Assembly (NCBI GenBank): GCA_964346295.1 | Contig: CAYFUG010000004.1 | Location: 532 to 64,531, forward strand | DNA: 64,000 bases | Direction: 5' to 3' | From: an uncultured Bdellovibrionales bacterium | GTDB taxonomy: Bacteria; Patescibacteriota; Minisyncoccia; Moranbacterales; DUUL01 | Part shown: piece after piece, positions 1 through 64,000 of the stretch | How the letters are laid out: each line of letters starts with the position of its first letter | How positions within the stretch are numbered: position 1 is the stretch's first letter | Notes under the pieces: model-generated | What the model was told of the DNA's origin: nothing | Database searches by the model: none | The model's input: only the letters and a program-made list of their open reading frames with translations | Made by a program: the position numbers and the translations under genes

Positions 1-2
1 CG

Positions 3-24118: not shown

Positions 24119-24122
24119 AACG

Positions 24123-32864: not shown

Positions 32865-32924
32865 ATATCCAAAGCTTCATTGTAATCTTTGGGTACTTCA
32901 ACCAAACCAGAAAAGGGGGATGCC

Positions 32925-34002: not shown

Positions 34003-34135
34003 CAAAAGGCCCGAAAGAGCCTGGCCAACGCGCCAAATCTTTCGGAGGGACGAACTTGTTGAACACAACATTTTCGTCCCCTCTACTAGCAACTTAATTT
34101 GAGACTTGATCTTTTATTGAGTTGCTTGAGAGAAT
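34003..34135 (+). repeat. 133-bp direct repeat, copy 2
   Basis: See 32704-32836. There are two substitutions between the copies. Confidence 0.9.
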
Positions 34136-39073: not shown

Positions 39074-39868
39074 ATGATGTTAGATGAAGAATTGATTAAA
39101 CTGGGCCTTTCCGAGAAAGAGGCAAAAGTTTACTTGGGGGCAATTCAATTAGGAGCCTCCACTGTCCAAAAAATTTCTCAGAAGTCTCAAGTTAACCGGG
39201 CGACTACTTATGTGATTATCGAGAGTTTAATGCGAATGGGCTTGATGTCTACTTTCGAGGAAGGTAGAAAAACTTTCTATGTTGCAGAGAAGCCTCGTCG
39301 TTTGGTAGAGTTCTATAAAAATAAGAAGACTCGCCTGGATGAGAAGATTGAAAGGTTAAGCGAGATCGTGCCGGAGTTGAATTCTCTTTATAACGATCAT
39401 TCCGACCGACCCAGAGTGAAGTATTATGAGGGCAGTGAGGGTTTATTAGCGATTTATGATGATTTCGAAAGTACTTTATCAGGGGGGCAAGAGATATTAA
39501 TATTTACTCCCATTGATGATTTCAAGAAAATCAAGAAGCCTCAGATGAGTCAAAGGATTGAGAAGTTTAGAGACAAGAGATTGAAAAAAGGAGTGAGAGC
39601 CAGGACTATATATAGCTCTGCGAGCGGAAGGGACGAAATATTTGAAGAAAGTATTAGAAAATTAGGTGAAGAGATCCTATTTTTAGAAAAAGATAAGAGT
39701 GGTCTCAATGGTTTAGACGCGGGTTTAAATGTTTATGGTAATAAGGTTTTCCTTTTTAGTTACCAAGGCAAGAGAGGCGGAGTTTTGATAGAGAGTCAAA
39801 GCGTGGCCAATCTTTTAGGAGGTATATTTGAAATAGTTTGGTCTCATTTGAAATCTTTAAAAAAGTGA
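39074..39868 (+). CDS. TrmB-family transcriptional regulator (paralog 2)
   Basis: LGLSEKEAKVYLGAIQLGASTVQKISQKSQVNRATTYVIIESLMRMGL. Start moved to the ATG preceded by TTGCAA-17-TATAAT. The track start at 38993 is a TTG. Confidence 0.75.
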   Translation: MMLDEELIKLGLSEKEAKVYLGAIQLGASTVQKISQKSQVNRATTYVIIESLMRMGLMSTFEEGRKTFYVAEKPRRLVEFYKNKKTRLDEKIERLSEIVPELNSLYNDHSDRPRVKYYEGSEGLLAIYDDFESTLSGGQEILIFTPIDDFKKIKKPQMSQRIEKFRDKRLKKGVRARTIYSSASGRDEIFEESIRKLGEEILFLEKDKSGLNGLDAGLNVYGNKVFLFSYQGKRGGVLIESQSVANLLGGIFEIVWSHLKSLKK

Positions 39869-44218: not shown

Positions 44219-44320
44219 AAATTTTGGTGTCAAAATCTCCGCTACTCCCTCACCGTAACTCTCAGTACGCCTCGCTCGCTGCTCGATTTCTCCTAAAAAT
44301 TTCCTAAAAAATGAAAGTCC
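44203..44320. repeat. 118-bp MITE-like palindromic element, family B, overlapping the GT4 stop
   Basis: TIRs GACTTCCATTTTTTGAAAATTTT / AAAATTTCCTAAAAAATGAAAGTCC. Core CTCACCGTAACTCTCAGTACG. Confidence 0.75.
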
Positions 44321-46835: not shown

Positions 46836-46994
46836 ACCCCGCACTAGAGCTTTGCTCAATGCGGGACAAGAATCTCGTTGTTGCCGGTTGCGTTTCGAAC
46901 TCATCGTACCTTTAGTGCGACTCGTCCGAAGCCTCACCCTTCTTTCCCACTTTCCGCTAAGGCTACAGAAGGGACAGATAAAACTTGAAAGTCC
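46819..46994. repeat. Composite MITE-like element overlapping the GT39 stop
   Basis: Left end GAACTTCCAAATTTTGAAC. Right part GCTACAGAAGGGACAGATAAAACTTGAAAGTCC is shared with 25152-25178. Confidence 0.5.
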
Positions 46995-47017: not shown

Positions 47018-47098
47018 TGATAAAATTTCCAGGAAAAACAATCAGTGGAGTGATATAAATTCCTTGATTTTTTATCAGTGGAGTGATAAAATTTCCAG
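47018..47098 (+). repeat. 33-bp tandem repeat (about 2.5 units) immediately upstream of the AAA+ ATPase start
   Basis: GATAAAATTTCCAGG at 47018 and 47084. ATCAGTGGAGTGATA at 47040 and 47073. Confidence 0.8.
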
Positions 47099-47102
47099 GT
47101 AA

Positions 47103-48377
47103 ATGATTAATTCTAGAAAAATGATTTCAAGAGAAATTTATCCTAAGCTTTATAGTTGGGCGAAAAAGGGCAAGATTATTATTTTGAAGGGACCTCGTCA
47201 GGCGGGGAAAACGACCCTGATGAATTTTTTATTAGACAATCTTAAAAAAGAAGGTCAAAATACCGCTTATTTGTTGGCAGATGACATTGATAAGCAAGAG
47301 TTGTTTAAGTCTCCAGCCGCTCTGGAATTTTACTTGAGTCAGAAGTATAATTTTCCCGAAAAACATCTTTTTCTTTTTATTGATGAGTTTCAATACATTG
47401 ATCAGGCGGGACTCTTCATTAAAAACTTTTTTGATAAGCATCAGGGCCAGGTAAATTTAATTTTAAGTGGGTCTAGTTCCCTGGAAATCACTCAAAATCA
47501 AGAGTTTTTGACCGGTCGGGCGGTGGAGTTTGAAATGGGAACTGTTAATTTTCGAGAGTTTTTTAATTTTCGAGAAGGAACTCGGATTAAAAAATTTCCC
47601 CTTGAAAGCCAGGATGATTTAAGTAATTTTTATAAATCCTTTGAGAGTAAGCTAAGCCTCGCCTTAAAGAATTTTTTAGTTTTTGGGGGGTATCCTGAGG
47701 TGGTGGAAACCTCATTAGAGGAAGATAAGAAAGTAATTTTAAAGTCGATTGTTAAGAAATATTTAGAAAAGGATGTGGCGGGTTTTTTGCAAATCGAAAA
47801 TATCACTGCCTTTAACAACTTAACGAAGATTTTGGCTTCTCAAATTGGTAATTTAGTTAATATTAGCGAACTGGCTAATACGGTAAACTTATCCATTAAC
47901 ACCGTTAAAAGATATCTGGATGTTTTGCAAGGGACATATGTCTTTAGTCTGGTGCGACCATATGCTAAGAACATTCGCAAGGAGCTAAGCAAAATGCCTA
48001 AAGTTTATATTCAAGACTTGGGGGCAAAAAATTATCTTTTAGGTGATTACAAAGACAATTTATTTGGTGGCAAGGAAGTGGAAAATTTTGTTTTTTTAGG
48101 GATGGCTAATAATTTAAGTTCAGAAGGAGTTAACTTCTATCGAACCAAGGGAGGCTCAGAGGTCGATTTTATTTTAGAAAAAGAGGGTGGCTTGAATTTG
48201 ATAGAAGTTAAATATCGGTCGGTTTCCAAGATCAAAGAGCCTCTGGCATTCGCCAATTTTTCGGAAAATTATGGAGACAGAGTTCAAAACAAGATTGTGA
48301 TTTCCAAAGATGTTTTAAAAAAAGATGGGAATATTTACTTTATTCCGGCGGTGCTTTGGCCCTGGATAGAGTTATAG
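47103..48377 (+). CDS. AAA+ ATPase of the AAA_14/DUF4143 type
   Basis: Walker A KGPRQAGKTT, Walker B LFIDEFQ. Paralog of the ORFs at 6258 and 7623. Confidence 0.9.
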   Translation: MINSRKMISREIYPKLYSWAKKGKIIILKGPRQAGKTTLMNFLLDNLKKEGQNTAYLLADDIDKQELFKSPAALEFYLSQKYNFPEKHLFLFIDEFQYIDQAGLFIKNFFDKHQGQVNLILSGSSSLEITQNQEFLTGRAVEFEMGTVNFREFFNFREGTRIKKFPLESQDDLSNFYKSFESKLSLALKNFLVFGGYPEVVETSLEEDKKVILKSIVKKYLEKDVAGFLQIENITAFNNLTKILASQIGNLVNISELANTVNLSINTVKRYLDVLQGTYVFSLVRPYAKNIRKELSKMPKVYIQDLGAKNYLLGDYKDNLFGGKEVENFVFLGMANNLSSEGVNFYRTKGGSEVDFILEKEGGLNLIEVKYRSVSKIKEPLAFANFSENYGDRVQNKIVISKDVLKKDGNIYFIPAVLWPWIEL

Positions 48378-48419: not shown

Positions 48420-49652
48420 ATGAAACAAACTAAAATTATTACCGAAAAGTGGGAGCAGGTGAGTCCAAGATTTATCTCTAGCTACCAAAAGACAGGAGGT
48501 TATCAGGATTTGGCTAAAGCCTTAAAAATGGGTCCGGATCAGGTACTTCAAGAGGTGTTAGCGTCTGGTCTGGCCGGTCGGGGCGGGGGCGGATTTCCTA
48601 CCGGAAAAAAGTGGCAAACGGCTTTAGAACAAAAAGCTTCGGAAAACTACTTTATCTGCAATTTGGATGAATCGGAGCCAGGGACTTACAAAGATCGCTA
48701 TTTAGCGGAAAGTAGTCCTCACCAGCTTTTAGAGGGCATTATGATTGCTTCTTTTGCCCTCAAGGTGAAGAAGGCTTACATTTACCTCAATGGAAATTTT
48801 CACGCCGCTCGGCAGTTGCTGCAAAACGCCCTTCAACAAGCCCAGGAAGCCGGATTTTTAGGAGAGAATATCTTGGAGAGCGGTTTTGATTTAGAAATCG
48901 AACTATTCGTGGGGGCGGGGGCCTATATTTGCGGAGAGGAATCAGCTTTGATTAATTCTATTGAGGGTAAAAGAGGGGAGCCACGGCGCCGGCCTCCTTT
49001 TGCTTGTGTTTGCGGACTGCATAATCGCCCTACGGTTGTGAACAACGCCGAAACTATTGCCAACTTGCCTTGGATAATCCAGAATGGCGGCAAGGCTTAT
49101 TCCCGGGTTGGCCTGCCAGATCAGCCGGGTACTAAACTTTTTTCCATCGGGGGAATGGTGCGTAACCCTGGTTTGTACGAGTTTCCTTTGGGCGTCAGTG
49201 TGCGAGAATTGGTTTACAAAGCGGGAATGGGCATGCGGCCAGGATTGGATTTTTGGTTTGCTCAAGTGGGGGGATCAGCCGGTCGCCTGGTAACGCGCAA
49301 TTTATTGGATGAAATTCCTAGTTATTCTCGCAAGGCTCGGATTTCGGTAGGATCGGGGGCGGTGCTGGTGGTAGATAAAAACCAGGACATCAAGGAACTT
49401 TTACTAGCTTGGAGCCGGTTTTTTGCTCGGGAGTCTTGCGGGCAGTGTGTTCCGTGTCGAGAGGGGACTTTCCGTTTGCAGCAGCTTGTAGAGCGCTTGG
49501 GGGGAGAAAATTTCAGTCAAGATGATTGGGAGGACATGCAGCGCATTATTTTCACTCTGGAGCGGAGTACTTTTTGCGCTTTAGGGAAGTTTGCAGCGGT
49601 GGCGATTAAGGATGCGCTGGAGCTGAAGTTGGTGGAGGCTTCCAAATTTTGA
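48420..49652 (+). CDS. NuoF-like NADH-binding FMN/Fe-S flavoprotein (51-kDa subunit family)
   Basis: GLAGRGGGGFPTGKKW, GAGAYICGEESALINSIEG and ESCGQCVPCREG motifs. Confidence 0.9.
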   Translation: MKQTKIITEKWEQVSPRFISSYQKTGGYQDLAKALKMGPDQVLQEVLASGLAGRGGGGFPTGKKWQTALEQKASENYFICNLDESEPGTYKDRYLAESSPHQLLEGIMIASFALKVKKAYIYLNGNFHAARQLLQNALQQAQEAGFLGENILESGFDLEIELFVGAGAYICGEESALINSIEGKRGEPRRRPPFACVCGLHNRPTVVNNAETIANLPWIIQNGGKAYSRVGLPDQPGTKLFSIGGMVRNPGLYEFPLGVSVRELVYKAGMGMRPGLDFWFAQVGGSAGRLVTRNLLDEIPSYSRKARISVGSGAVLVVDKNQDIKELLLAWSRFFARESCGQCVPCREGTFRLQQLVERLGGENFSQDDWEDMQRIIFTLERSTFCALGKFAAVAIKDALELKLVEASKF

Positions 49653-49754
49653 AAATTTTGGTGTTGCAAGCTGCGTTTGGCACTCACCGTACCCTTCAGT
49701 ACGGCTCGCACCAAGCCTCGCTTGCGCCTAAAAATTTCCTAAAATTTGGAAGCC
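49637..49754. repeat. 118-bp MITE-like palindromic element, family B, overlapping the NuoF-like stop
   Basis: TIRs GGCTTCCAAATTTTGAAAATTTTGGTG / CCTAAAAATTTCCTAAAATTTGGAAGCC. Core CTCACCGTACCCTTCAGTACGG. Confidence 0.8.
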
Positions 49755-55944: not shown

Positions 55945-56360
55945 AAACTAAAATACTACAATTCCTAGTCGCTTGGTCTAGCTTTGTCTAGATCAAGAGG
56001 AAAGTCTGGACACCAGCCGGCTTTCAATTGGAAGCCAGTTAAAAGGGTAATCGGTAACGCCGATCGGGCTCGATGTGAGTCGAGTCAAGGGATAGCGCCG
56101 CAGAGACAATACTAGTTAATGCTCTGCATTAACGAAAGGTGAAAAGTGTCGAGGGGCTCATTTCTTCGGAATTTGAGCTACTCGACTCGGCTATTGGCGA
56201 CAATAGTTTGTGGCAAGCCCTACCCGGTGCAAGGCCGTGTCTTCTCGTAAAAGAGAGGAAGTGCCGCTAAAGTTCAGCAGTGATGTTGAATGTAGATAAA
56301 TGACTAGGCCAATTTACTTTGGTAGATTGGTACAGAATCCGGCTTATTTTATCTAGTTTT
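55945..56360 (+). ncRNA. rnpB: RNase P RNA (bacterial type A-like)
   Basis: GAGGAAAGTCTGG (55997-56009) and ACAGAATCCGGCTTA (56332-56346) form the universal P4 strands. P1 pairing is AAACTAAAATA / TATTTTATCTAGTTT. GC-rich relative to its surroundings. Confidence 0.85.
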
Positions 56361-56658
56361 CAGTTAGTAGTTTTCAGTTTTTAGGCCGCATGGAGGCAGC
56401 GCAGGTTATAGAAGCGAGTCCTTTGTAAAAATCTCGAGCGTTGTTTACAGCTTTCTTTATTAGTAGAACACCTCTATTTTTCTTCATGAGGCATTTTGTC
56501 TCCTATATAAGGCAATAAACGCCGTCATTAAAACTGGAGCGGTTTGAAATTGAAATTTAAAAATGTAAACAACGCTAAGGAATCTTACAAGTTATTTCTT
56601 ATCTTGAATTTTCTGGTGTAGTATATGCTGAGCTAAGATAGAAAATAAAATCAAAAGA

Positions 56659-57144
56659 ATGGGTCAATTTGTTTATTTTATACCCCATTTATTCCCACTG
56701 ATTGTCGGAGGGGTGGTAATTTTCTCTCTGGGACATTTTAGCTTTAAATTCTTTATGCACCTTGTGAATAGGAGGTTTTATGTAGCTCCTAGGGAAGGCT
56801 CTATTCTTGGTAAGACGGCAGCTTTCTTGTCTTTGGGATTTTTACCAATTTTTTTCTTAGTAGGAATGCTGGAGTCTAAATTGGATGGATTTTTGAATGA
56901 CCTAATGTTAAATTCTAGTATTTTTCAGCGGGGGACTTTTTTAAGAAAAGCTATCTTTTATCTAGAGCAAAGTTCACTTGCTCTGATTTTTCTAGTTGTT
57001 TATTTAATTTTTTACTCATTTTTAATCTTTCTTTCATATTCCAAAGAGTCAAATAAAAAGTGGGCCTTTCTTTCAGAAGTTGTAATTTTTATTGGGATAG
57101 GCTATTTGGGCTATTTGCTTTTAGTGGCATTTGGAGTGGGATGA
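56659..57144 (+). CDS. Integral membrane protein (hypothetical)
   Basis: Four or five hydrophobic segments. Confidence 0.55.
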   Translation: MGQFVYFIPHLFPLIVGGVVIFSLGHFSFKFFMHLVNRRFYVAPREGSILGKTAAFLSLGFLPIFFLVGMLESKLDGFLNDLMLNSSIFQRGTFLRKAIFYLEQSSLALIFLVVYLIFYSFLIFLSYSKESNKKWAFLSEVVIFIGIGYLGYLLLVAFGVG

Positions 57145-57172
57145 TTTTTTAGTTTTAATTGCTTCATTTTCT

Positions 57173-58018
57173 ATGGTTAAAAGATCTTCGGGTAAAATTA
57201 AATATGGAGTGGTTGGGGGAGTTTTTTTATTGGTTTTATTGGTGGTCTTTGTGACTAGAGGGAGCGATAAAAAACCCCTGGAGGGCTTTTGGAATTGGAC
57301 AGTGCGGCCAGTAGCAGGAGTTTTTTCGGCAGTGGGAGGTTGGTTTGGTCAAAAAACTTCGGTGGTTACTTCCATTGGGGAAGTTAAAGAGGAGAATAAC
57401 CGCTTAACGGAGGAGAATTTAAAATTAAAATTTCAATTATCTCAATTGGCTAGTATTCAGCGAGAAAACGAGGAGTTGCGGAGTTTGTTGGCCTTGGCAC
57501 CAGTGGATAAATACGATCTGGAATCAGTGCTGATTGTGGGGCGAGATGTGAATGGTCAAAGAGAGGTGGTTTATCTTAGCAAGGGCAGCAAGCAGGGCAT
57601 TCAAGAGGGGATGGGAGTAGTGGTAGGTGAGGGGGTGTTGATTGGAAAAATTTCTAAAGTTTTTGCTAATTCTTCACAAATGGAGTTTTTAGTGAGTGAT
57701 ATGCGAGTAAACGCTGAAATTGTGGAAGCGGGAGCCAAGGGTGTAGTGGTGGGCCGCTATGAAACGGCAGCGCTAATGGAGATGATTCCTCGGACAGTAG
57801 AGGTAAACAAAGGCGATGCGATTATCACTTCTGGGGTGGGAAAAACTCTCCCCAGGGGTCTTTTGATCGGTTATGTAGCGGAAGTTAAACCTTCTTCTAA
57901 CCAGCTTTTCCAAGAGGCTAGTATTGAATTTTTGGTGGATTTTCAAAAAATTCGGGGAGCGTGGGTGGTGAAAAAGGCTAAGGATGAGGAAGAGGAAGTT
58001 GACCGAGTAGAAAACTAA
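57173..58018 (+). CDS. mreC: Rod shape-determining protein MreC
   Basis: N-terminal TM, coiled coil EENNRLTEENLKLKFQLSQL...ENEELRSLL, and C-terminal beta domain (VITSGVGKTLPRGLLIGYV). Start at ATG 57173. Confidence 0.85.
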   Translation: MVKRSSGKIKYGVVGGVFLLVLLVVFVTRGSDKKPLEGFWNWTVRPVAGVFSAVGGWFGQKTSVVTSIGEVKEENNRLTEENLKLKFQLSQLASIQRENEELRSLLALAPVDKYDLESVLIVGRDVNGQREVVYLSKGSKQGIQEGMGVVVGEGVLIGKISKVFANSSQMEFLVSDMRVNAEIVEAGAKGVVVGRYETAALMEMIPRTVEVNKGDAIITSGVGKTLPRGLLIGYVAEVKPSSNQLFQEASIEFLVDFQKIRGAWVVKKAKDEEEEVDRVEN

Positions 58019-58051: not shown

Positions 58052-58837
58052 TTAAGCTGGCAAAGTTTTCCAAAGTTGCTCAAATTGGGTGCGTTGGAGA
58101 GCGTAGATTTGAGGATCTTCGATAATGATGGAAATTAACCCGGAGGACCCGATTGCCTGGTAGGAGATTTTATTGTGATAAATTTGAATGGAAGCGCTGA
58201 AGTTAAGGGCGCTTTTTTTAATGAAACGCACTTGAGTGATGGCCTGGTAATTAGCGGGAGCAGTTCGATATTCTTCGATTATTCCGGGTTCATCAAGATC
58301 GATAATCCTTTTTTGGAGCCCCAAACGGGCTCTTTTTTGAGTGTAGCGAGCGTTGATCTTCTCATTGTTTTTGGCTAATTTCGGATCAGTGGTTCTAAAA
58401 ATAGCAGCAGAATCGATTAAAGTGAGAATTTCCGTGTCGCTGCGCAAAGTGTCCTCCAGCACTTTCTCTAGACCTTCGGAGCCCTCTAAAAAGCGAATTC
58501 CTGGTCGATTGAGGCCCAAATTGTATAAAGAAGCTAAGTTAGGCGCCATCTCTAAGAAGGCGCTTTTTTGTTGCTTAAATTCTTGCTCTTTTTGATCGAG
58601 GATTTTTTGGATTTGAGCCGGGTGTTGAGCGGAAAAACGGGCTACTTTGCCTTTTTTATCAAGCCTAAAGACTAGTTCCAGGTTCTCTAGCTCAGCCAGA
58701 ATTTTATAGGCGGCTTCTCTGGGGCGGTTGGTTTTTTGGGCAATTTCTCGGGCTCGGGTCGGTCCGTTTTGGTAGAGGAATTCCAAGATTTGGGCTTGGG
58801 AGGGGGTGAGGCCGATGCTTTGGAGAAGTTCCAGCAT
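58052..58837 (-). CDS. TrmB-family transcriptional regulator (paralog 3)
   Basis: GLTPSQAQILEFLYQNGPTRAREIAQKTNRPREAAYKILAELENLELV. Divergent from the module 3 promoter. Confidence 0.8.
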   Translation of the reverse strand: MLELLQSIGLTPSQAQILEFLYQNGPTRAREIAQKTNRPREAAYKILAELENLELVFRLDKKGKVARFSAQHPAQIQKILDQKEQEFKQQKSAFLEMAPNLASLYNLGLNRPGIRFLEGSEGLEKVLEDTLRSDTEILTLIDSAAIFRTTDPKLAKNNEKINARYTQKRARLGLQKRIIDLDEPGIIEEYRTAPANYQAITQVRFIKKSALNFSASIQIYHNKISYQAIGSSGLISIIIEDPQIYALQRTQFEQLWKTLPA

Positions 58838-58846
58838 ATTGAGAAG

Positions 58847-58964
58847 AACTTCCAGATTTGGCGAATCTCGATGTTACTCGCTGCGTTTAGTACTCACCAT
58901 ACTTCTTAGTACGCCTCCCACTAAGCCTCACTTGCACCTAGAGCTTCACTCAAATCTGAAAGTT
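58847..58964. repeat. 118-bp MITE-like palindromic element, family B
   Basis: TIRs AACTTCCAGATTTGGCGAA / TTCACTCAAATCTGAAAGTT. Core CTCACCATACTTCTTAGTACG. Confidence 0.75.
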
Positions 58965-59119
58965 TTAAAGTAAGCTGTTTATTTTGTCATGGGTAATTTT
59001 AGCACATTTATATTTTTTGTAAACTTTTAAGATTACATTTTTTAGGCTTATTTAATTATTTTATCTTTATTGAGTTATTTTTTAAAGTAACATTTTCAAT
59101 TTTAGTGTAGTTTTGATTA

Positions 59120-59148
59120 TTGACAAATATTAATTATTATGCTACAAT
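59120..59148 (+). promoter_or_regulatory. Module 3 promoter (consensus sigma70, extended -10)
   Basis: TTGACA, 17-nt spacer, TGcTACAAT. A/T-rich upstream. Followed by GTCAAGCTCAGAAAAGG (59154-59170). Confidence 0.75.
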
Positions 59149-59260
59149 GCTCTGTCAAGCTCAGAAAAGGTTCAGATTCGTGGGTTTTGATTGTTGGAAT
59201 AATTTTGAGATCCGGAAAAAGGCTTAAAAAGCTTTTCTCGGGCTCTCAAAGCAGAGCCTA

Positions 59261-59285
59261 GGTTCTTTGAAAACTTAGAAATCAG
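59261..59285 (+). promoter_or_regulatory. boxA-like antitermination motif (module 3)
   Basis: GGTTCTTTGAAAACTTAGAAATCAG. Confidence 0.6.
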
Positions 59286-59324
59286 TTACTTCGAGATTCT
59301 TACTTGGAAATTGATAAAGAGGGT

Positions 59325-59384
59325 AGTTATCAGTCTTTTGAGGCTCTAAATTGCAAAATTTGGGGCTTGAGATGACTGATAACT
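59325..59384 (+). promoter_or_regulatory. 22-bp-stem hairpin after boxA (RNase III-like or terminator-like)
   Basis: AGTTATCAGTCTTTTGAGGCTC pairs with GGGCTTGAGATGACTGATAACT (2 mismatches, several G-U pairs). Followed by TATTTTTTATTTT. Confidence 0.6.
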
Positions 59385-59420
59385 TATTTTTTATTTTCTT
59401 TTATCAACAAGGAGGATATC

Positions 59421-60554
59421 ATGAAAAAAATTTTTTTATACAGTCCGGGCGCGGATCTGCTCCTTTCCTGGGGCGCTCATTTGATCGAACGGCCTGATCT
59501 GTCAATCGAACGGGACATGCTCGCGGGCGCGATCAGCGAATGGAACCGGAACGAATTGCTGGCGGATTTCCTGGAATCCTGGCCGACCATGCTGGAAGAC
59601 GCCAACAAGGCGCAAGCGTTTTTTGAAGCTCGTCCCGTCATTCCCAATGATTTCACCGATCCTGACTGGAATGAGGCCATTGACGCCCTGCGGGCGTTCG
59701 ACCAGGTCGTTCATCTGTGGGTCGCGGTCGAAGACTTGTTCAGTGACAACGCGCCGGAAGTCATCGACGAACTGGAAGGCCGTTGTTACGACATTTCCGA
59801 ATGGCTTGACAACGCCGAATCGTTTACCAGCCTTCGTCTGGCCCCCTTGAACGAATGGCGGAAAAACCGGATTGAACGCGTCGAAGCGTCTTCCCGGTTC
59901 CTGTTTCCCTGGCTTGCCGATATGGCATGGGCCCCCGCCGACGCGCTGGAACAGCTTGAAGCCCATTGGAACGCGGTTCGGGAAAAAGGCGTTGGCGGCC
60001 TTTCATTTATCGCCGAGCCGGACCGCCTCATTTTCTGGGATTATTTAAAACGCGACATCGGGCTTCAGCAGGAAATGGAAAACCGCCGGCGGCTGGACAT
60101 CGCCATCGCCGACGCCGTGGATCAGAGCCTTCCGCTTCAACTGTTGCGGGTATACGAGAAGCATGTGCAAATATCCGACGTGCCGGAACACGTCCTTCGC
60201 CATGGACTGGCCAACGCGGCCTGCGCCGCCCTGACGGGCGACCGGCATGACGAAGCGTCCCATGAAGACCTGGGCCCCGCCCTGGAAGCGGCCATGGCGC
60301 AAAACGCTCCCATCGAGCGCGTGCTGACGACCGCCCTTTGCGGCCCCTTTCTTACCGACGCCCAGCGGCTTGCCGCGTTCAAGCGGGCCGCGATGAAGCT
60401 GGAAAAAGACGTCTCGGTGGGCGGTTTGGAGGGAATCTTCACCCAGGTGGACCTATGGATGAAAAACGAACTGACGGACGGCGATTTTGCCGACGCGATG
60501 ATGGCCGCCTGGGACCGGATGGCGGAAAACGCCATGAAAGGAGGTGATAACTGA
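59421..60554 (+). CDS. GC-rich cargo protein 3 (377 aa), unknown function
   Basis: CAAGGAGGATATC-ATG. GC3-rich. Several shadow ORFs on both strands. Confidence 0.8.
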   Translation: MKKIFLYSPGADLLLSWGAHLIERPDLSIERDMLAGAISEWNRNELLADFLESWPTMLEDANKAQAFFEARPVIPNDFTDPDWNEAIDALRAFDQVVHLWVAVEDLFSDNAPEVIDELEGRCYDISEWLDNAESFTSLRLAPLNEWRKNRIERVEASSRFLFPWLADMAWAPADALEQLEAHWNAVREKGVGGLSFIAEPDRLIFWDYLKRDIGLQQEMENRRRLDIAIADAVDQSLPLQLLRVYEKHVQISDVPEHVLRHGLANAACAALTGDRHDEASHEDLGPALEAAMAQNAPIERVLTTALCGPFLTDAQRLAAFKRAAMKLEKDVSVGGLEGIFTQVDLWMKNELTDGDFADAMMAAWDRMAENAMKGGDN

Positions 60555-60572
60555 TTTCTAGTGGTTCTTTTC

Positions 60573-60616
60573 GGATCAGGCTCGCAATGCGCGCTTGGTC
60601 CGGAATTCTGAGCTTG
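60573..60616 (+). promoter_or_regulatory. Conserved trailer element: hairpin plus CCGGAATTCTGAGCTTG
   Basis: GGATCAGGC...GCTTGGTCC hairpin. TTCTGAGCTTG (60606-60616) is the exact reverse complement of CAAGCTCAGAA at the transcript 5' end (59156-59166). Confidence 0.55.
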
Positions 60617-60672
60617 TCTGGAGCAATTTGATTGCTTTAGGCAAGTTGAGAATTCTTGAGTGATATTTTTTC

Positions 60673-60707
60673 AAACCTGGCAGATCTAAAGATAGGCCAG
60701 GTTTTTT
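60673..60707 (+). terminator. Intrinsic terminator (end of module 3)
   Basis: AAACCTGGC-loop-GCCAGGTTTTTT. Confidence 0.75.
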
Positions 60708-60813
60708 GATGGTGCTCAATTTCCCTGTCTCCCTTTGCAAAAAAAAGGGGGAGCTGGGAAATTGTTTTTTGTTTAGCTAACTGTTAAAATTAGGCTATCA
60801 ATTTCTATCAACT

Positions 60814-61050
60814 CTAGGAAGATCTTAAAAAATAAAAACTAATGTTGGGCGAAAAAATTATCGATAAAAAAAGATTTGATTCTCGTTTTTTATCCTCATG
60901 AGTGTACTTCATTGCGTCTCCTCGTTGTTCAATGATCTTGTCAATTTGCTTTTCTGATAGCTCCGGATCATCGTTTCCAGTGAATTTTGCCATCATCATT
61001 TGAAGTCTCCGCTCCTCTGTTTTTTCAGATTTTTCCAATTCCTTGCTCAT
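60814..61050 (-). CDS. Small hypothetical protein (78 aa), downstream partner of a 2-gene pair
   Basis: Its start overlaps the upstream gene's stop (ATGA). Confidence 0.4.
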   Translation of the reverse strand: MSKELEKSEKTEERRLQMMMAKFTGNDDPELSEKQIDKIIEQRGDAMKYTHEDKKRESNLFLSIIFSPNISFYFLRSS

Positions 61051-61298
61051 TGCGTTGTTTTTTGAAGGTAATTAAGCAAAAAAACGCTCCCTTTGGATTT
61101 TCTTGAGTCTTCTTCTTTTTCAAAGTAATAATCTAAAGAATCCCTCAATTCCTTTTTCAGTAAGATAGAAATCAAAAAACGAGCCTCTCTTGAAGTGATT
61201 AAACTTTCCTTTTTCGCTTCAACGATTCTATCAATTTTTAAGTCAAGTTCGTCGGAGTAGTTGTTCTTGGGACGGATTGTGATGCTAGTAGTATTCAT
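61047..61298 (-). CDS. Small protein with ribbon-helix-helix-like N-terminus (83 aa)
   Basis: SITIRPKNNYSDELDLKIDRIVEAKK...SREARFLISILL fits a beta-strand/helix/helix pattern. Tentative. Confidence 0.45.
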   Translation of the reverse strand: MNTTSITIRPKNNYSDELDLKIDRIVEAKKESLITSREARFLISILLKKELRDSLDYYFEKEEDSRKSKGSVFLLNYLQKTTQ

Positions 61299-61521: not shown

Positions 61522-62046
61522 ATGGGCAAGATCATTTTTTTCTTTTTATTTCTCACTTTTTTTGTCGAGTTCTCTCTTTTGGCAGCTTTTCCGGGGGATT
61601 TTTTTGCGGGAGCCGGTTTTTTCGCAGTTTTTTTGCTGGCAGTAACTCTCAAGCGAGATGAGGAGGAAAGTCTATTTTGGGCTATTTCCGGAGGTATTTT
61701 CTTGGATTATTTCTCGTCTTTGCCCTGGGGAACTAATGCCTTGGCTTTTGGATCAATAGTTTTTTTGGCTGCTTTAGTAAAACAGAAGTTGCTTTCTCAG
61801 GACCAGCGCTTTTATCAAGCTTTTGTCTTGGTGCTGGTCTTGGAGATCATCTTTTCAATCCTGATTCTTTTGTGGGGTAATTTTTTATCGTTAATCACGG
61901 GAGAGGGTTGGTTATGGCTAGGTTCTTCGGCGGGAAGTTACTTAATTTCGCAGGTGTTTTTTGCTCTTTGGGGAGGATTTTTCTACAAGATACTGTGGCT
62001 GGGAGAGAGTTATTTGGAGAAGAAAGAGAGACGGTTGATTGTCTAA
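61522..62046 (+). CDS. mreD: Rod shape-determining protein MreD (probable)
   Basis: 174-aa polytopic membrane protein directly upstream of PBP2. Size and position are typical of MreD. Confidence 0.6.
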   Translation: MGKIIFFFLFLTFFVEFSLLAAFPGDFFAGAGFFAVFLLAVTLKRDEEESLFWAISGGIFLDYFSSLPWGTNALAFGSIVFLAALVKQKLLSQDQRFYQAFVLVLVLEIIFSILILLWGNFLSLITGEGWLWLGSSAGSYLISQVFFALWGGFFYKILWLGESYLEKKERRLIV

Positions 62047-62142: not shown

Positions 62143-64000
62143 ATGGGTTTATTTAAAAAACACAAAAAAATAGCGAACTTTGAGATCGATAATCCCTTAG
62201 GCTACTCTCGCCGGAAGAGTGGCTTAGGGGAGGCGGAAGAGTCAGATAAGGATTCAGCCTCTCTTAATCGTGGGATAGCTTGGCTAATAATGGCCGGTTT
62301 TTTCGCATTGCTATTTGGCAGGGTTTTTTATCTGCAAATAATATCCGGGGAGCATTATAGGGAGATAGCTAGGGAAAATCGAATTCAATCCAAGGTGATT
62401 CCAGCCTTGAGGGGATTGATTAAGGATCAAGAGGGAGTGGCTTTAGTGCAAAATAAACCTGGATTTGATGCGGTAGTGATTCCGGCCTTACTCCCTAAGG
62501 AAGAAAAGGAATTAGAAAAAGGCATGGAGATATTTTCTCAAATGGTTGATATAAGCAAGGAAGAGTTGCGAGTTCAGGTTAAACAATATCGACCCTATGA
62601 TCAGAACATGCATTTAATTGAGGAAGGAATCTCAGAAGAGAAAGCCTTAGCAATTGCCGAAAAACAAGGGGAGTTTCCAGGGTTCGAAGTGGCGAACTTT
62701 GCTAAGCGCTATTATCCGCGAGGACCGGCTTATGCTCATATTTTGGGGTACGAAGGGAAAGTTAATCAGGAGGAGTTGGACTTAAATCCTGGCTATCTCT
62801 CAACTGATAATATCGGAAAGAGTGGCTTAGAGTATACTTATGAGCAATACTTAAAGGGAGAGCACGGAGAGTATCAATTCGAGGTAGATTCTCAGGGGCG
62901 TTTAAAAAAAGAATTAGGAGAGGATCCTCCAATTCCCGGGAGTGATCTAGTTTTGCATTTGGATAGTCAATTGCAAGAGATGATTTATCAAGAGTTATCC
63001 TTGGTAATGGAGGAAAATCCAGATGCTACTGGAGCCACGGCAATCGCAATCGACCCTCGGAATGGAGGAGTACGGGCACTGGTAAGTGTTCCTTCTTTTG
63101 ATAACAATCTTTTTTCTGGAGGAATAGGGCAGGAGGATTACAATAAGTTATTGCATAATCCTAACCGCCCACTCTTTAATCGGGCAGTGAGCGGAGAGTA
63201 TCCTCCGGGCTCCACTTTTAAGCCGGTGGTAGCCCTGGCAGCCTTAAATGAAGGTACTGTTAGCGAAAACCTCATTCTCCAATGCAAAGGAGGGATTAAA
63301 GTAGGAGAGTGGTATTTTCCAGATTGGAAAACCCATGGCCCGACCGATATCAAAAAGGCGATTGCTGAGAGTTGTAATGTATATTTTTATGCTATAGGAG
63401 GAGGTTGGGGAGATGTTCCAGCCTTGGGAGTTGATCGAATTAACAAATATGCCAAGGGGTATGGATTCGGAGAAATTTTAGGTATTGATTTGCCCGGAGA
63501 AAAGGGGGGGCTAGTGCCGAACGATGCTTGGAAGCAGCGTCGATTTGGGGAGAGTTGGTATGTGGGAGATAGTTATCATATTTCGATTGGCCAGGGTTAT
63601 TTTTTAGCCACTCCTCTTCAGGTGGCTAACATGACAGCAGCAGTGGCTAACGGGGGTACTTTATATCGACCTCAGTTAGTAGACAAGATAGTAAATGCGG
63701 AGACCAGACAGGAAAAACAGCTGTCCTCTGTGGTGTTGGGCAAGGAAATAGTTTCTCCGGAGGCAATGCGAACAGTGCGGGAGGGCATGAGAGACACCGT
63801 GATAACGAAACATGGAAGCGGATGGCCCCTTAAGGAGTTGAAAGTGACTAGTGCTGGGAAAACTGGGACGGCTCAATTTGGAAATGAAGATAAGACTCAC
63901 TCTTGGTATACTTCTTTTGCGCCTTATGAGAACCCGGAACTGGCGATGGTGGTGTTAGTTGAATCAGGAGGAGGAGCTTTTGATTGGGCGGTTCCAGTTA
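62143..64000 (+). CDS. mrdA: Penicillin-binding protein 2 (elongasome transpeptidase), 3' end off-window
   Basis: Not in the ORF track because no stop lies in the window. My own translation from ATG 62143 gives an N-terminal TM segment, GRVFYLQIISGEHY, PGSTFKP (SxxK), AESCN (SxN) and AGKTGTA (KTG). Confidence 0.92.
   Translation, partial: MGLFKKHKKIANFEIDNPLGYSRRKSGLGEAEESDKDSASLNRGIAWLIMAGFFALLFGRVFYLQIISGEHYREIARENRIQSKVIPALRGLIKDQEGVALVQNKPGFDAVVIPALLPKEEKELEKGMEIFSQMVDISKEELRVQVKQYRPYDQNMHLIEEGISEEKALAIAEKQGEFPGFEVANFAKRYYPRGPAYAHILGYEGKVNQEELDLNPGYLSTDNIGKSGLEYTYEQYLKGEHGEYQFEVDSQGRLKKELGEDPPIPGSDLVLHLDSQLQEMIYQELSLVMEENPDATGATAIAIDPRNGGVRALVSVPSFDNNLFSGGIGQEDYNKLLHNPNRPLFNRAVSGEYPPGSTFKPVVALAALNEGTVSENLILQCKGGIKVGEWYFPDWKTHGPTDIKKAIAESCNVYFYAIGGGWGDVPALGVDRINKYAKGYGFGEILGIDLPGEKGGLVPNDAWKQRRFGESWYVGDSYHISIGQGYFLATPLQVANMTAAVANGGTLYRPQLVDKIVNAETRQEKQLSSVVLGKEIVSPEAMRTVREGMRDTVITKHGSGWPLKELKVTSAGKTGTAQFGNEDKTHSWYTSFAPYENPELAMVVLVESGGGAFDWAVPV

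What the first reader, a model, noticed from the sequence alone, without database searches (positions are those of the whole stretch)
58052..61298. Module 3 with its TrmB regulator is wedged between mreC and mreD, which suggests an insertion
mreC ends at 58018 and the probable mreD starts at 61522, followed by mrdA. In most bacteria mreC and mreD are adjacent and co-transcribed. Here about 3.5 kb separates them. That interval contains a minus-strand TrmB-like regulator, a 118-bp MITE, the module 3 promoter/leader/boxA/hairpin, one ~62% GC cargo gene, the trailer plus terminator, and a small minus-strand two-gene pair. This argues that the regulator-plus-module unit, or part of it, arrived by insertion and may be mobile or recombinationally shuffled.
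Basis: partly seen in the sequence, partly recalled or inferred. Interest (0 to 1): 0.85.

Follow-up and report, generated by a model that had tools for sequence, protein, structure and literature searches.

The report
Captured CRISPR Csx30 fragment splitting mreC–mreD
A tiny symbiotic-type (CPR) bacterium has a 3.5-kb insertion between two cell-shape genes; in it, a switchable, strongly expressed cassette carries a recently stolen half of Csx30, a signalling protein from another bacterium's type III-E CRISPR immune system.

Summary
mreC (57131/57173-58018) and mreD (61522-62046, followed by mrdA from 62143) lie 3,503 bp apart. Three Moranbacteria-like relatives have mreC-mreD-mrdA contiguous, with a gap of -4 to +28 nt. 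The interval holds a TrmB-like gene, a MITE, a near-consensus promoter, a structured boxA leader, one 58.6% GC ORF, a structured trailer with two terminators, and two small minus-strand ORFs.

The cargo is the N-terminal domain of Csx30, the substrate of the type III-E CRISPR protease Craspase. In Csx30 this domain binds the sigma factor and Csx31. It matches the NCBIfam Csx30 equivalog at 154.5 bits (cutoff 125), covering profile positions 2-347 of 560.

Foreign DNA spans only 59434-60537. It is 92% identical to csx30 in a canonical cas7-11/csx29 locus from a sister sample. The host cassette supplies the SD, the ATG, the first four codons, the last five codons and the stop. The linker, cleavage loop and Csx29-docking C-terminal domain are absent.

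The insertion is composite. A TrmB ortholog already follows mreC in a relative at dS 1.56, whereas cargo dS to the donor-like allele is 0.15.

I found no target-site duplication, terminal repeats, recombinase or empty-site variant, so mobility of the unit is not shown. The function (decoy or toxin) is inferred.

The parts
57131..58018 (+). mreC, the left flank of the insertion. The probable true start is ATG 57173.
   Evidence: Pfam MreC E 2.9e-32. The ortholog P0006 and the ENA gene call start at MVKRSSGK, which is 57173.
58052..58837 (-). TrmB-like winged-helix regulator (TrmB3). It is convergent with mreC and divergent from the module promoter.
   Evidence: PF01978 E 6.6e-11 and MarR_2 2.6e-8. 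It is 36% identical to the TrmB-like gene beside module 2, 28001-28762. The 3' end of an ortholog follows mreC in relative L004.
58845..58967 (.). MITE-like repeat between the TrmB start codon and the module promoter.
   Evidence: 14-nt terminal inverted repeats, 93% complementary (I16). Diverged copies at 49639-49752 and 46870-46937, with more distant family members.
59120..59148 (+). Module promoter, TTGACA-17-TACAAT with TG. A 60-nt block including it is shared with modules 1 and 2.
   Evidence: 11 of 12 matches. Repeat family D1 has copies at 9046, 9128, 28878 and 59120. TTGACA...TGTCAA brackets the core promoter in the copies.
59155..59420 (+). Structured leader. It contains a hairpin at 59240-59259, boxA at 59262-59273, the arm TAGAAATCAGTTA at 59276-59288, a long terminator-like hairpin at 59325-59384 followed by a U-rich run, and the SD AAGGAGG at 59409-59415.
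   Evidence: MFE -85.9 kcal/mol, z = -4.8. boxA motif 4 of 4 inside modules against 0.16 expected. Hairpins (I2).
59421..60554 (+). Cargo ORF, 377 aa: a stand-alone Csx30 N-terminal domain.
   Evidence: NCBIfam NF041234 CAS_csx30, 154.5 bits (cutoff 125), E 4.4e-45, residues 12-369 matched to profile 2-347 of 560. 83-88% aa identity to the 572-576 aa Csx30 proteins P0003 and P0002. AF2 pLDDT 94.7, all-alpha, last helix 353-376.
59434..60537 (+). The foreign DNA proper. This is the only stretch that aligns to the donor-type csx30 genes.
   Evidence: blastn 92.0% to L002 and 86.0% to L001 over exactly this span. Both junctions are sharp. GC 59.4% and GC3 70.7%.
60548..60770 (+). Structured trailer. 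It contains TAACTGATTTCTA at 60548-60560, a perfect complement of leader 59276-59288; a hairpin at 60572-60608 with loop CAATGCGC; a hairpin at 60603-60655 holding the shared TCCGGAATTCTGAGCTT; and terminators at 60673-60704 and 60717-60764.
   Evidence: 13 of 13 complementarity, P about 0.001 by shuffling (I19, 107). MFE -103.4 kcal/mol, z = -8.5. Trailer motif shared with module 2 (D19, 53, 79). Conserved-loop hairpins.
60814..61298 (-). Two small overlapping ORFs, 83 aa (61298-61047) and 78 aa (61050-60814), of unknown function.
   Evidence: ORF list. No hits in Pfam, PHROGs or PDB. They sit on the same contigs in other assemblies.
61522..62046 (+). mreD, the right flank of the insertion.
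   Evidence: PF04093 26.3 bits against cutoff 24. Aligns end to end with the genes that follow mreC in L005 and L006.
62143..64000 (+). mrdA (PBP2), which runs off the end of the window.
   Evidence: PBP_dimer 2.7e-38 and Transpeptidase 5.5e-65. 670 aa on the full contig.

Best explanation
**Shown.** The 3.5-kb interval is a composite insertion into the mreC-mreD junction of a Moranbacteria-like CPR bacterium from microbial mats.

Its framework is a resident expression cassette made of:
- a divergent TrmB-like regulator gene;
- a near-consensus sigma-70 promoter;
- a structured leader of about 265 nt, with a hairpin followed by a boxA antitermination motif, then a terminator-like hairpin just before a strong Shine-Dalgarno sequence;
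- a structured trailer;
- two intrinsic terminators.

The same kind of cassette occurs twice more in the window.

Into this framework a 1.1-kb piece of foreign, high-GC DNA was captured much more recently. It corresponds to the whole N-terminal domain of Csx30 from a type III-E CRISPR-Cas (Cas7-11/Csx29 'Craspase') locus of a co-occurring bacterium. The cassette supplies the ribosome-binding site, the ATG, the first four codons, the last five codons and the stop. The linker, the Csx29 cleavage loop and the C-terminal domain are missing; in Desulfonema ishimotonii, residues 396-565, which span that linker end and domain, suffice for cleavage.

**Inferred.** TrmB3 represses the promoter. When repression is lifted, the Nus/boxA complex carries RNA polymerase through the leader hairpin and the GC-rich foreign ORF, and the trailer structures stabilise or process the mRNA. 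The product is a free Csx30 N-terminal domain that can still bind the CRISPR-associated sigma factor (CASP-sigma/RpoE) and Csx31, but that Craspase should be unable to dock or cut.

The most likely role is as an uncleavable competitor that perturbs type III-E signalling of the donor-type organism, which may be the symbiont's host. That would make it a counter-defence decoy. The evidence does not separate this from a growth-arrest effector role.
For: **Insertion**
- The gap is 3,503 bp, against -4 to +28 nt in L005, L006 and L007.

**Cargo identity**
- NCBIfam Csx30 equivalog above its cutoff.
- PDB 8EEY_E 'Csx30', E 1.2e-5, for the full-length homolog.
- The homologs sit in the operon CHAT/Csx29 (7zoq_A, 6e-106) - sigma70_r4 protein - two ~190-aa genes - Csx30 - Cas7-11 (7zol_B, E = 0).

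**Foreign origin and junctions**
-.

**The fragment is a complete domain**
- Homology ends at residue ~372-373.
- Literature places the D. ishimotonii N-terminal domain at 1-377, the linker at 377-406, cleavage at M427|K428, and says residues 396-565 suffice for cleavage (PMC10028731; 10.1101/2022.08.17.504292).
- P0004 diverges from P0002 and P0003 at the same point.
- The AF2 model has pLDDT 94.7 and is compact and all-alpha to residue 376.

**N-terminal domain binding partners**
- It binds CASP-sigma/RpoE and Csx31.

**Selection**
- 25 nonsynonymous to 22 synonymous changes on the window lineage; binomial against a neutral 0.75, P = 0.001.
- dN/dS 0.36-0.41 against 0.23-0.25 between the two full-length genes.

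**Relative ages**
- Cargo dS 0.15 against mreC dS 1.56 to L004, which already has TrmB after mreC.

**Cassette paralogy and structure**
-.

**Donor type co-occurs**
- L002 comes from the sister JGI sample.
- Contigs of other assemblies break at 59967-60000, inside the stretch nearly identical to L002.

**Recurrence**
- Two further Csx30 genes that consist only of the N-terminal domain lie outside CRISPR loci, behind strong promoters or in cassette arrays: L017 and L018.
- Module 2 carries a type III CRISPR-associated DHH nuclease homolog.
- boxA antitermination outside rRNA operons is established (10.1101/091223; PMC7665894).
Against: **Function**
- It is untested. Strecker et al. found that the D. 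ishimotonii N-terminal fragment binds CASP-sigma only weakly and does not block its DNA binding.
- A decoy would have to reach a cell that owns a type III-E system. The protein has no obvious secretion signal, and transfer from CPR cell to host is unproven.
- The window covers only 64 kb, so the genome could hold its own type III-E locus elsewhere.

**Regulation and RNA**
- The TrmB-promoter link rests only on adjacency, in 2 of 3 modules.
- No transcription data are available.
- boxA is assigned from a 10-11 of 11 match to a gamma-proteobacterial consensus. I could not compare it with this organism's own rRNA leader, because the window has no rRNA and the collection scans found nothing.
- Leader-trailer pairing is not conserved as strictly in module 2. 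Part of the trailer motif folds locally.

**Selection signal**
- Part of the purifying-selection signal may date from before the transfer.

**Synteny**
- Relatives with contiguous mreCD are distant (MreC 46-54% identity).
- mreB is also missing upstream of mreC here, so this lineage has rearranged the mre cluster more than once.
Confidence: 0.6

Rival explanations
1. The structure is the same, but the role differs. The stand-alone Csx30 N-terminal domain is a tightly repressed growth-arrest toxin. The CPR cell would use it for its own abortive-infection or dormancy response, or as a weapon against its host. The TrmB repressor and the leader terminator would keep it silent.
For: - Kato et al. 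report that the Csx30 N-terminal fragment (1-427) inhibits E. coli growth and that Csx31 suppresses this. No csx31 is present in the window.
- A repressor gene, a very strong promoter and a terminator-like leader hairpin together are what one expects for a dangerous gene.
Against: - Strecker et al. saw no toxicity of Csx30 fragments in E. coli and no phage defence.
- The reported toxicity may act through the cognate sigma factor, which a CPR cell is not known to have.
- This role does not explain why another module carries a DHH nuclease of a type III-associated family.
Confidence: 0.2
2. The cargo is functionless debris of horizontal transfer that landed in a tolerant intergenic site and is still intact only because it is young.
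For: - The transfer is recent: dS 0.15 overall, and only 5 differences in 297 nt in the central part.
- The window-lineage dN/dS is somewhat higher than between the full-length genes.
- No partner genes are nearby.
Against: - The fragment is bounded within a few codons of a domain boundary at the 3' end and 8 residues into the protein at the 5' end. It is in frame with a host-type SD, ATG and stop.
- The nonsynonymous-to-synonymous count of 25:22 departs from neutrality, P = 0.001.
- Three cassettes share the same architecture.
- Independent Csx30 genes limited to the N-terminal domain occur in L017 and L018.
Confidence: 0.12
3. The whole TrmB-plus-module unit, or each cargo unit, is an active mobile element. 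It would be a transposon-like island, or an integron-like cassette that uses the conserved trailer hairpin as a recombination site.
For: - Cargo units end with a conserved (C)TGATT(T)CT motif plus a hairpin whose loop CAWTGYGC is conserved while the stems differ.
- The cargo is far younger than the framework.
- Module 2 holds several cargo units of differing GC.
Against: - No target-site duplication or terminal repeats at the borders beyond chance.
- No integrase, transposase or recombinase among the larger ORFs scanned across the 64 kb.
- TrmB2 and TrmB3 are only 36% identical, so the units are old paralogs rather than recent copies.
- A TrmB ortholog sits at the same site in L004.
- All assemblies sampled carry the same arrangement.
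Confidence: 0.08
4. This is an assembly chimera between the CPR genome and the co-occurring high-GC organism.
For: Other assemblies break inside the cargo at 59967-60000, where it is nearly identical to L002.
Against: - Independent ENA and Logan contigs cross both junctions at 99.9-100% identity.
- The cargo differs from L002 at 89 of 1,104 positions.
- Both junctions are in frame, with host-type start and stop signals.
Confidence: 0.02

Closest known systems
Csx30 of type III-E CRISPR-Cas (Craspase substrate; NCBIfam NF041234)
   Same: The cargo is homologous over the whole alpha-helical N-terminal domain. It is 83-88% identical to Csx30 proteins encoded next to cas7-11 and csx29.
   Different: It has only profile positions 2-347 of 560: no linker, no cleavage loop, no C-terminal domain. 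It is not in a CRISPR locus. It sits in a low-GC CPR chromosome behind a host promoter and leader, and its first codons have been replaced.
Protease-regulated anti-sigma factors (RseA/sigma-E type), the analogy Strecker et al. draw for Csx30/CASP-sigma
   Same: The retained domain is the one that binds the ECF-type sigma factor.
   Different: The part that makes the anti-sigma factor responsive to its protease is missing. No cognate sigma factor gene is nearby.
Anti-CRISPR and counter-defence proteins derived from, or mimicking, defence components. Viral ring nucleases against type III signalling are an example (my own knowledge).
   Same: The logic would be the same: a captured piece of the defence pathway is expressed by the attacked party. 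A second cassette holds a type III-associated DHH nuclease homolog.
   Different: The carrier is a cellular chromosome, not a virus or plasmid. No inhibition has been shown. I found no hit for the cargo in phage, plasmid or viral collections.
rRNA-operon antitermination leaders (boxB-boxA-boxC) with a leader-trailer helix
   Same: A hairpin is followed by a boxA-like GTTCTTTGAAAA, matching the consensus GYTCTTTAANA at 10-11 of 11 positions. A 13-nt perfect complement brackets the cargo right after boxA and at the stop codon.
   Different: The enclosed gene encodes a protein. Nus-factor binding and processing are untested. This organism's own rRNA leader was not available for comparison.
boxA-dependent antitermination of non-rRNA transcripts (suhB, CRISPR arrays)
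   Same: boxA is used outside rRNA operons, to protect transcripts from premature termination.
   Different: Here it precedes translated, horizontally acquired genes in a CPR bacterium.
Integron gene cassettes
   Same: One strong promoter drives foreign ORFs of varied composition, and each ORF is followed by a structured element.
   Different: There is no integrase, no attC-type core sites and no attI. The cargo is fused in frame to host start and stop codons.

Membership tests
Csx30 (type III-E CRISPR-associated protein, NF041234) | Sequence match to the family model above its curated cutoff | tested here: met
   154.5 bits against cutoff 125, E 4.4e-45. The full-length homolog P0003 hits PDB 8EEY_E 'Csx30'.
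Csx30 (type III-E CRISPR-associated protein, NF041234) | Two-domain architecture with a linker and a C-terminal domain that carries the Csx29 docking surface and cleavage loop | tested here: not met
   Only profile positions 2-347 of 560 are matched. The ORF stops at residue 377. The homologs P0002 and P0003 continue for about 200 more residues.
Csx30 (type III-E CRISPR-associated protein, NF041234) | Encoded in a locus with cas7-11, csx29, csx31 and the sigma factor | tested here: not met
   No cas or RAMP/CHAT genes among the larger ORFs scanned in the 64-kb window. The rest of the genome was not seen.
Csx30 (type III-E CRISPR-associated protein, NF041234) | Cleaved by target-RNA-activated Cas7-11-Csx29; binds CASP-sigma and Csx31 | not testable with these tools
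   Needs biochemistry. Literature places sigma and Csx31 binding in the N-terminal domain, and docking and cleavage in residues 396-565.
mreCD-mrdA cell-shape operon | The flanking genes are MreC, MreD and PBP2, and they are adjacent in relatives | tested here: met
   Pfam hits, MreD alignment, contiguity in L005, L006 and L007.
TrmB-family transcription regulator | N-terminal TrmB-type winged helix-turn-helix | tested here: met
   PF01978 E 6.6e-11, residues 5-70.
TrmB-family transcription regulator | Ligand-binding C-terminal domain and binding to the adjacent promoter | not tested
   No Pfam hit covers the C-terminal 190 residues. The operator is inferred only from the TTGACA...TGTCAA repeat around the promoter.
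rrn-type boxA antitermination leader | boxA consensus in the 5' leader, preceded by a hairpin | tested here: met
   GTTCTTTGAAAA at 59262-59273 after the hairpin at 59240-59259. Four motif copies, all in modules, against 0.16 expected. Consensus GYTCTTTAANA.
rrn-type boxA antitermination leader | Same motif in the organism's own rRNA leader; NusB/NusE binding | tested here: inconclusive
   The window has no rRNA. Pattern scans of genome and metagenome collections returned nothing. Binding cannot be tested here.
Transposon, insertion sequence or genomic island with recombinase | Target-site duplication or terminal inverted repeats at the borders | tested here: not met
   Longest border repeat is 7 nt direct and 6 nt inverted. 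Shuffled controls most often give 7.
Transposon, insertion sequence or genomic island with recombinase | Transposase, integrase or recombinase gene | tested here: not met
   None in the interval or among the larger ORFs scanned in the window.
Transposon, insertion sequence or genomic island with recombinase | Presence/absence polymorphism or different locations among strains | tested here: inconclusive
   All contigs found are the same strain with the same arrangement. The closest other lineage, L004, shares TrmB at this site, but its contig ends there.
MITE | Short, non-coding, with terminal inverted repeats and multiple copies | tested here: met
   118-123 bp with 14-nt terminal inverted repeats. 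Diverged copies in the window and in L004. Target-site duplication not examined.
Anti-CRISPR / counter-defence protein | Demonstrated inhibition of a CRISPR system; usually carried by a mobile element | not testable with these tools
   This is only an inference from the domain content. No homolog found in phage, plasmid or viral collections.

The most novel reading that the evidence does not exclude
An episymbiotic CPR bacterium keeps a set of repressor-controlled, rRNA-leader-like (boxA) expression cassettes. It loads them with pieces of other bacteria's type III CRISPR signalling machinery. Here the piece is the sigma/Csx31-binding half of Csx30, without its protease handle. In a neighbouring cassette it is a CorA-associated DHH nuclease. 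The cassettes would form a cellular, non-viral anti-CRISPR arsenal directed at the host that tries to reject the symbiont, and their cargo would turn over while the cassette frame stays in place. Host CRISPR targeting of episymbionts has a precedent in archaea (Esser et al. 2023, as cited in PMC12612501).
Probability: 0.25. Interest if true: 0.9.

Novelty: new variant of a known kind. Interest (0 to 1): 0.78.

Why it matters
**If the cargo is functional.** This would be the first case I know of in which a cellular symbiont, rather than a virus or plasmid, has domesticated part of a type III-E CRISPR signalling protein. It would give a concrete handle on two open questions: what the Csx30 N-terminal domain actually does, and how CPR bacteria cope with host defences. 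It would also nominate a host or donor, namely the ~55% GC owner of the L002-type Craspase locus living in the same mats.

**Independently of function.**
- The locus shows sharply defined, in-frame capture of a foreign domain into a conserved promoter-leader-trailer frame.
- boxA-type leaders appear in front of protein-coding, horizontally acquired genes in CPR bacteria.
- Essential operons such as mreCD can be split by such cassettes without loss of the flanking genes.

**Recurrence.** Csx30 genes limited to the N-terminal domain also occur outside CRISPR loci in two unrelated contigs. That suggests a wider phenomenon worth a systematic survey.

Tried and rejected
1. **Concatenated protein search.** I joined TrmB3 and eight cargo proteins into one 2,021-aa query for the search for homologous proteins.
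2. **Genome-collection scans.** The MreC protein and the boxA-plus-stem pattern both found nothing.
3. **Metagenome-collection scans.** The promoter/5'-leader pattern and the TrmB3 protein both found nothing. Even the window's own contig was not returned, so that collection seems not to hold this sample.
4. **Mobile-element collections.** The cargo has no match in viral contigs, phage records or plasmid records.
5. **First AF2 run.** Full-length P0003 with a 4-sequence alignment gave pLDDT 44 and is unusable.
6. **Second AF2 run and fold search.** The cargo with 46 sequences gave a confident model. Foldseek against the PDB then gave no hit with E below 0.6. The Csx30 N-terminal domain is probably unresolved in the solved complexes, so fold comparison added nothing.
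7. **Leader-trailer duplex energy.** RNA duplexfold gave z = -2.9 for module 3 but +0.8 for module 2, and it over-extends the pairing. I do not use it as evidence. An earlier version of that script timed out.
8. **Border repeats.** The search for a target-site duplication, att site or terminal repeats was negative.
9. **Small ORFs.** No family or structure hit. A toxin-antitoxin pair is only a guess from the 4-nt overlap.
10. **Organism names.** Cluster look-ups returned none.
11. **High-GC islands as hidden rRNA or another known structured RNA.** Rejected. Rfam finds only RNase P RNA in the window, and the islands carry long ORFs with protein homologs.

Full report
**1. What is at the coordinates**

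- mreC is ORF 57131-58018 (Pfam MreC, E 2.9e-32). It is followed 33 nt later by the stop codon of a convergent TrmB-like gene, 58052-58837 on the minus strand (PF01978, E 6.6e-11).
- mreD is 61522-62046. PF04093 scores 26.3 bits, above the 24-bit cutoff, and the protein aligns end to end with the genes that follow mreC in relatives.
- PBP2/mrdA starts at 62143.
- mreC and mreD are therefore 3,503 bp apart.
- Two corrections: mreC most likely starts at ATG 57173, and the cargo is 58.6% GC overall, reaching 62-66% only in its 3' half, against 42.9% for the window.

**2. Anatomy of the interval**

From left to right:

- The TrmB-like gene on the minus strand.
- A 118-123 bp MITE with 14-nt terminal inverted repeats and diverged copies elsewhere in the window.
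- A 19% GC spacer.
- The promoter TTGACA-17-TACAAT with an upstream TG, 11 of 12 matches.
- A leader of about 265 nt that folds far better than shuffled controls (z = -4.8). It contains a hairpin at 59240-59259, the motif GTTCTTTGAAAA at 59262-59273, a 28-nt-arm hairpin at 59325-59384 followed by a U-rich run, and the SD AAGGAGG six bases before the ATG at 59421.
- The 377-codon ORF.
- A trailer that is even more structured (z = -8.5), with two hairpin-plus-T-run terminators.
- Two small overlapping minus-strand ORFs that match no family.

The boxA-like motif occurs four times in the 64 kb, always on the + strand and always inside one of the three high-GC modules, against 0.16 expected. It matches the published consensus GYTCTTTAANA at 10-11 of 11 positions.

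A 13-nt stretch directly after boxA (59276-59288) is perfectly complementary to 60548-60560, which overlaps the cargo's stop codon. Shuffling reaches 13 nt in 2 of 2,000 trials.

The promoter block, the trailer motif TCCGGAATTCTGAGCTT and a hairpin with the conserved loop CAWTGYGC but differing stems are shared with the other modules. The frame of the module is therefore a repeated, conserved design. The two TrmB-like proteins next to modules 2 and 3 are only 36% identical, so the copies are old.

**3. Is it an insertion?**

MreC homologs place the organism among CPR bacteria near Candidatus Moranbacteria.

In three relatives with 46-54% MreC identity (L005, L006, L007), mreC is followed at -4 to +28 nt by a 175-181 aa gene and then PBP2. 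That gene aligns with the window's MreD where I tested it (L005, L006). In two of the three relatives mreB lies directly upstream of mreC. The ancestral state is therefore a contiguous mreBCD-mrdA cluster, and the 3.5 kb here is an insertion.

The closest lineage found is L004 (MreC 89% aa, 79% nt). Its contig ends 131 nt after mreC, but those last bases encode the C-terminus of a TrmB3 ortholog (...QFEQLWSTLP...) in the same convergent position. The regulator, and presumably the frame, was in place before these two lineages split, at mreC dS 1.56.

mreB is absent from the 57 kb upstream of mreC. RNase P RNA and a 161-aa membrane ORF lie there instead, so this lineage has broken the mre cluster more than once.

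**4. Is the unit mobile?**

I found no sign of it.

- The longest repeat shared by the two borders is 7 nt direct or 6 nt inverted, which is what shuffled sequence gives.
- None of the larger ORFs scanned in the window encodes a recombinase, integrase or transposase.
- Seven further contigs from four other sequencing runs (microbial-mat metagenomes PRJEB25599, and ERR1878606) are 99.9-100% identical to the window across the left or the right junction. No empty-site variant turned up.

**5. What the cargo is**

The cargo has no Pfam or PADLOC hit and only three relatives in the word-indexed protein search. Two of them are 572-576 aa proteins on ~55% GC contigs.

On those contigs the gene sits in an operon with:
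- a CHAT protease (PDB 7zoq_A TPR-CHAT, 6e-106);
- a sigma-70 region 4 protein;
- two ~190-aa proteins;
- a giant RAMP protein (PDB 7zol_B Cas7-11, E = 0).

That is a canonical type III-E CRISPR-Cas locus with the gene in the csx30 position.

- P0003 hits PDB 8EEY chain E, named Csx30.
- The window's ORF itself scores 154.5 bits against the NCBIfam equivalog model CAS_csx30 (cutoff 125), but only over profile positions 2-347 of 560.
- An exhaustive HMMER search of 1.84 billion representatives finds just 97 family members, nearly all 510-700 aa.

**6. The junctions**

Nucleotide similarity to the donor-type genes covers exactly 59434-60537, at 92.0% to L002 and 86.0% to L001.

- **5' side.** The donors read ATG-ACG/AAA-ACA-TGG-ACC-GAA-CAG-GAA-ATT-TTA-TAC. 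The window has AAGGAGGATATC-ATG-AAA-AAA-ATT-TTT-TTA-TAC. Eight native codons were replaced by a host-type ribosome-binding site and four AT-rich codons.
- **3' side.** Similarity stops after ...GCC-ATG-A. The window continues with AA-GGA-GGT-GAT-AAC-TGA, running straight into the conserved trailer element.

The break falls at the end of the conserved N-terminal domain.

- P0004, another family member, diverges from P0002 and P0003 at the same residue.
- Conservation in a 46-sequence family alignment ends there.
- An AF2 model built on that alignment is a compact all-alpha domain with pLDDT 94.7, whose last helix is 353-376.
- The literature on Desulfonema ishimotonii Csx30 gives the N-terminal domain as 1-377, a linker at 377-406, cleavage by Csx29 at M427|K428, and residues 396-565 as sufficient for recognition and cleavage. 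The N-terminal domain binds the CRISPR-associated sigma factor and Csx31 (PMC10028731; 10.1101/2022.08.17.504292).

The cargo is therefore the sigma/Csx31-binding half of Csx30, without everything that ties it to the protease.

**7. Age and selection**

- Cargo against L002: dS 0.15-0.17 and dN/dS 0.36-0.41. L002 against L001: dN/dS 0.23-0.25.
- With L001 as outgroup, the window lineage has 25 nonsynonymous and 22 synonymous changes. This is far from the roughly 3:1 ratio expected without constraint (binomial P = 0.001), and close to the L002 lineage's 18:15. Some of this branch predates the transfer, so it is not proof of selection in the new host.
- Divergence from L002 is mosaic. There are 5 differences in 297 nt in the centre and 14-18% at 59532-59630 and 60225-60521. 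The true donor was therefore a related allele, and the transfer may be very recent.
- With mreC dS at 1.56 to the lineage that already had TrmB here, the cargo is much younger than the frame. This inference assumes roughly comparable synonymous rates.

**8. Co-occurrence with the donor type**

L002 comes from JGI sample 3300012009, and the window from 3300012002, whose neighbouring sample and contig numbers suggest the same project. In other assemblies the contigs stop at 59967 from the left and at 59997-60000 from the right. That is inside the stretch where the cargo and L002 share identical runs of 112, 43 and 96 nt. The simplest reading is that the assembly graph branches because both organisms are in those samples.

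**9. How it most likely works**

Shown: the structure, the origin and the domain content.

Inferred:
- The divergent TrmB-like protein controls the promoter. The promoter is bracketed by TTGACA...TGTCAA in the copies.
- boxA recruits Nus factors, so that RNA polymerase passes the leader hairpin and the foreign ORF. boxA antitermination outside rRNA is established for suhB and CRISPR arrays. boxB-boxA-boxC elements and a leader-trailer helix characterise pre-rRNA transcription (PMC10250234 abstract).
- The leader and trailer structures stabilise or process the mRNA.
- The product binds CASP-sigma and/or Csx31 but cannot be docked or cleaved.

I favour a counter-defence decoy, for four reasons. 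The retained and deleted parts fit that logic. The donor type lives alongside. Module 2 carries a homolog of a type III CRISPR-associated DHH nuclease family (PADLOC DHH_CorA, 3e-31). Host CRISPR targeting of episymbionts is documented in archaea (PMC12612501).

Against it:
- Strecker et al. found the N-terminal fragment unable to block sigma binding.
- No route for delivering the protein into another cell is known.

The main alternative is a repressed growth-arrest effector, which rests on the toxicity Kato et al. reported. I cannot separate these two roles with sequence data.

**10. Recurrence elsewhere**

Among the few short family members:

- **P0109** (377 aa) is a complete gene of 58-63% GC on a 32-48% GC contig, next to polA and a GIY-YIG gene. 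A TTGACA-17-TATAAT promoter lies about 380 nt upstream, and its first residues are also trimmed.
- **P0163** (358 aa) sits in an array of six small genes with GC alternating between 35% and 60%, separated by repeated hairpin, promoter-like and SD spacers.
- **P0155** (372 aa), on a 29% GC contig, follows a gene similar to the region upstream of csx30 in L001. It probably belongs to a native type III-E locus.

At least two further, independent placements of a Csx30 limited to its N-terminal domain therefore exist outside CRISPR loci. This argues that the stand-alone domain has a use.

**11. Comparison with known systems and novelty**

- The cargo matches the Csx30 family by sequence, but it fails two defining features that I tested: the two-domain architecture and the CRISPR-locus context. 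It should be described as a Csx30-derived domain, not as a Csx30.
- The frame resembles an rRNA-operon leader and trailer, and boxA-controlled non-rRNA transcripts. It also has a loose likeness to integron cassettes, but with no integrase or attC.
- Genomic islets in conserved operons and horizontal transfer into CPR genomes are ordinary. The in-frame capture of a CRISPR signalling domain into a conserved, regulated boxA cassette in a CPR chromosome is, to my knowledge, undescribed. Two literature searches on anti-CRISPR in Patescibacteria and against type III-E found nothing of the kind.
- I rate it a new variant of known kinds.

**12. Verdict**

- The insertion is supported. It is composite rather than a single mobile unit.
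- The cargo is identified with high confidence.
- The function is inferred with low to moderate confidence.
- Interest is high, because of what the cargo is rather than because of the mreC-mreD split itself.

Noticed in passing
window 30527-31306 (module 2): A 259-aa cargo protein matches PADLOC DHH_CorA, a 'DHH family hydrolase, CorA associated', at 3.2e-31, and C3a116 at 3.6e-30. This is a second cargo related to type III CRISPR accessory genes, in the same kind of cassette.
   Followed up: partly
window 29872-29898, 32039-32068, 60572-60608: Hairpins with a conserved loop CA(T/A)TG(T/C)GC and different stems of 8-13 bp follow cargo units in modules 2 and 3. Each is preceded by (C)TGATT(T)CT, the complement of the leader sequence after boxA. 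They could be an RNA processing or stability element, or a recombination site.
   Followed up: partly
L017 (Logan SRR22388274) 3652-5163: An independent Csx30 limited to the N-terminal domain (P0109, 377 aa, 26% identical to the window's cargo). The gene is 58-63% GC on a 32-48% GC contig, next to polA and a GIY-YIG gene, behind a TTGACA-17-TATAAT promoter and a leader of about 350 nt.
   Followed up: partly
L018 (ENA ERZ27266020) 1-4434: An array of six small genes with GC alternating between 35% and 60%, separated by repeated hairpin, promoter-like and SD spacers. The fifth gene is a Csx30 limited to the N-terminal domain (P0163, 358 aa). It may be a phage or another cassette array; no PHROG hits.
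   Followed up: partly
L020 (ENA ERZ27252164): A 29% GC contig with a 372-aa short Csx30 (P0155), preceded by a gene similar to the region upstream of csx30 in L001. It is probably a native type III-E locus whose Csx30 lacks the usual C-terminal domain, but the contig ends 144 nt later.
   Followed up: no
window 32704-32836 and 34003-34135: 133-nt direct repeats, 98% identical, flank ORF 32889-33971 (360 aa, no family hit), just downstream of module 2.
   Followed up: no
window 24122-24260, 24975-25079, 44200-44317, 46870-46937, 49634-49752, 58845-58967; L004 173-289 and 568-689: A MITE-like repeat family with several diverged copies in intergenic regions. In relative L004 one copy interrupts the stretch that matches RNase P RNA, and another lies just upstream of mreC.
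   Followed up: partly
window 55953-57144: RNase P RNA (Rfam RF00010, 144.6 bits) and a 161-aa membrane ORF occupy the place where relatives have mreB. No mreB is found anywhere in the window.
   Followed up: partly
window 59967-60000: Contigs from other assemblies of the same strain end here from both sides, inside the part of the cargo that is nearly identical to the L002 csx30. This suggests the donor-type organism is present in those samples too.
   Followed up: partly
window 6258-7505, 7623-8957, 47103-48377: Three AAA_14/DUF4143 ATPase genes. 33-nt tandem repeats lie upstream of two of them (7573-7638 and 47018-47128). One gene sits directly upstream of module 1, in the position a TrmB gene occupies beside modules 2 and 3.
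   Followed up: no
window 38993-39868: A third TrmB-like gene (291 aa, + strand, PF01978 2.3e-13) that is not next to a high-GC module.
   Followed up: no
window 9046-9187: Module 1 has two tandem copies of the shared promoter block, 82 nt apart, and a leader of about 1.07 kb before its first high-GC ORF at 10229-11209.
   Followed up: no
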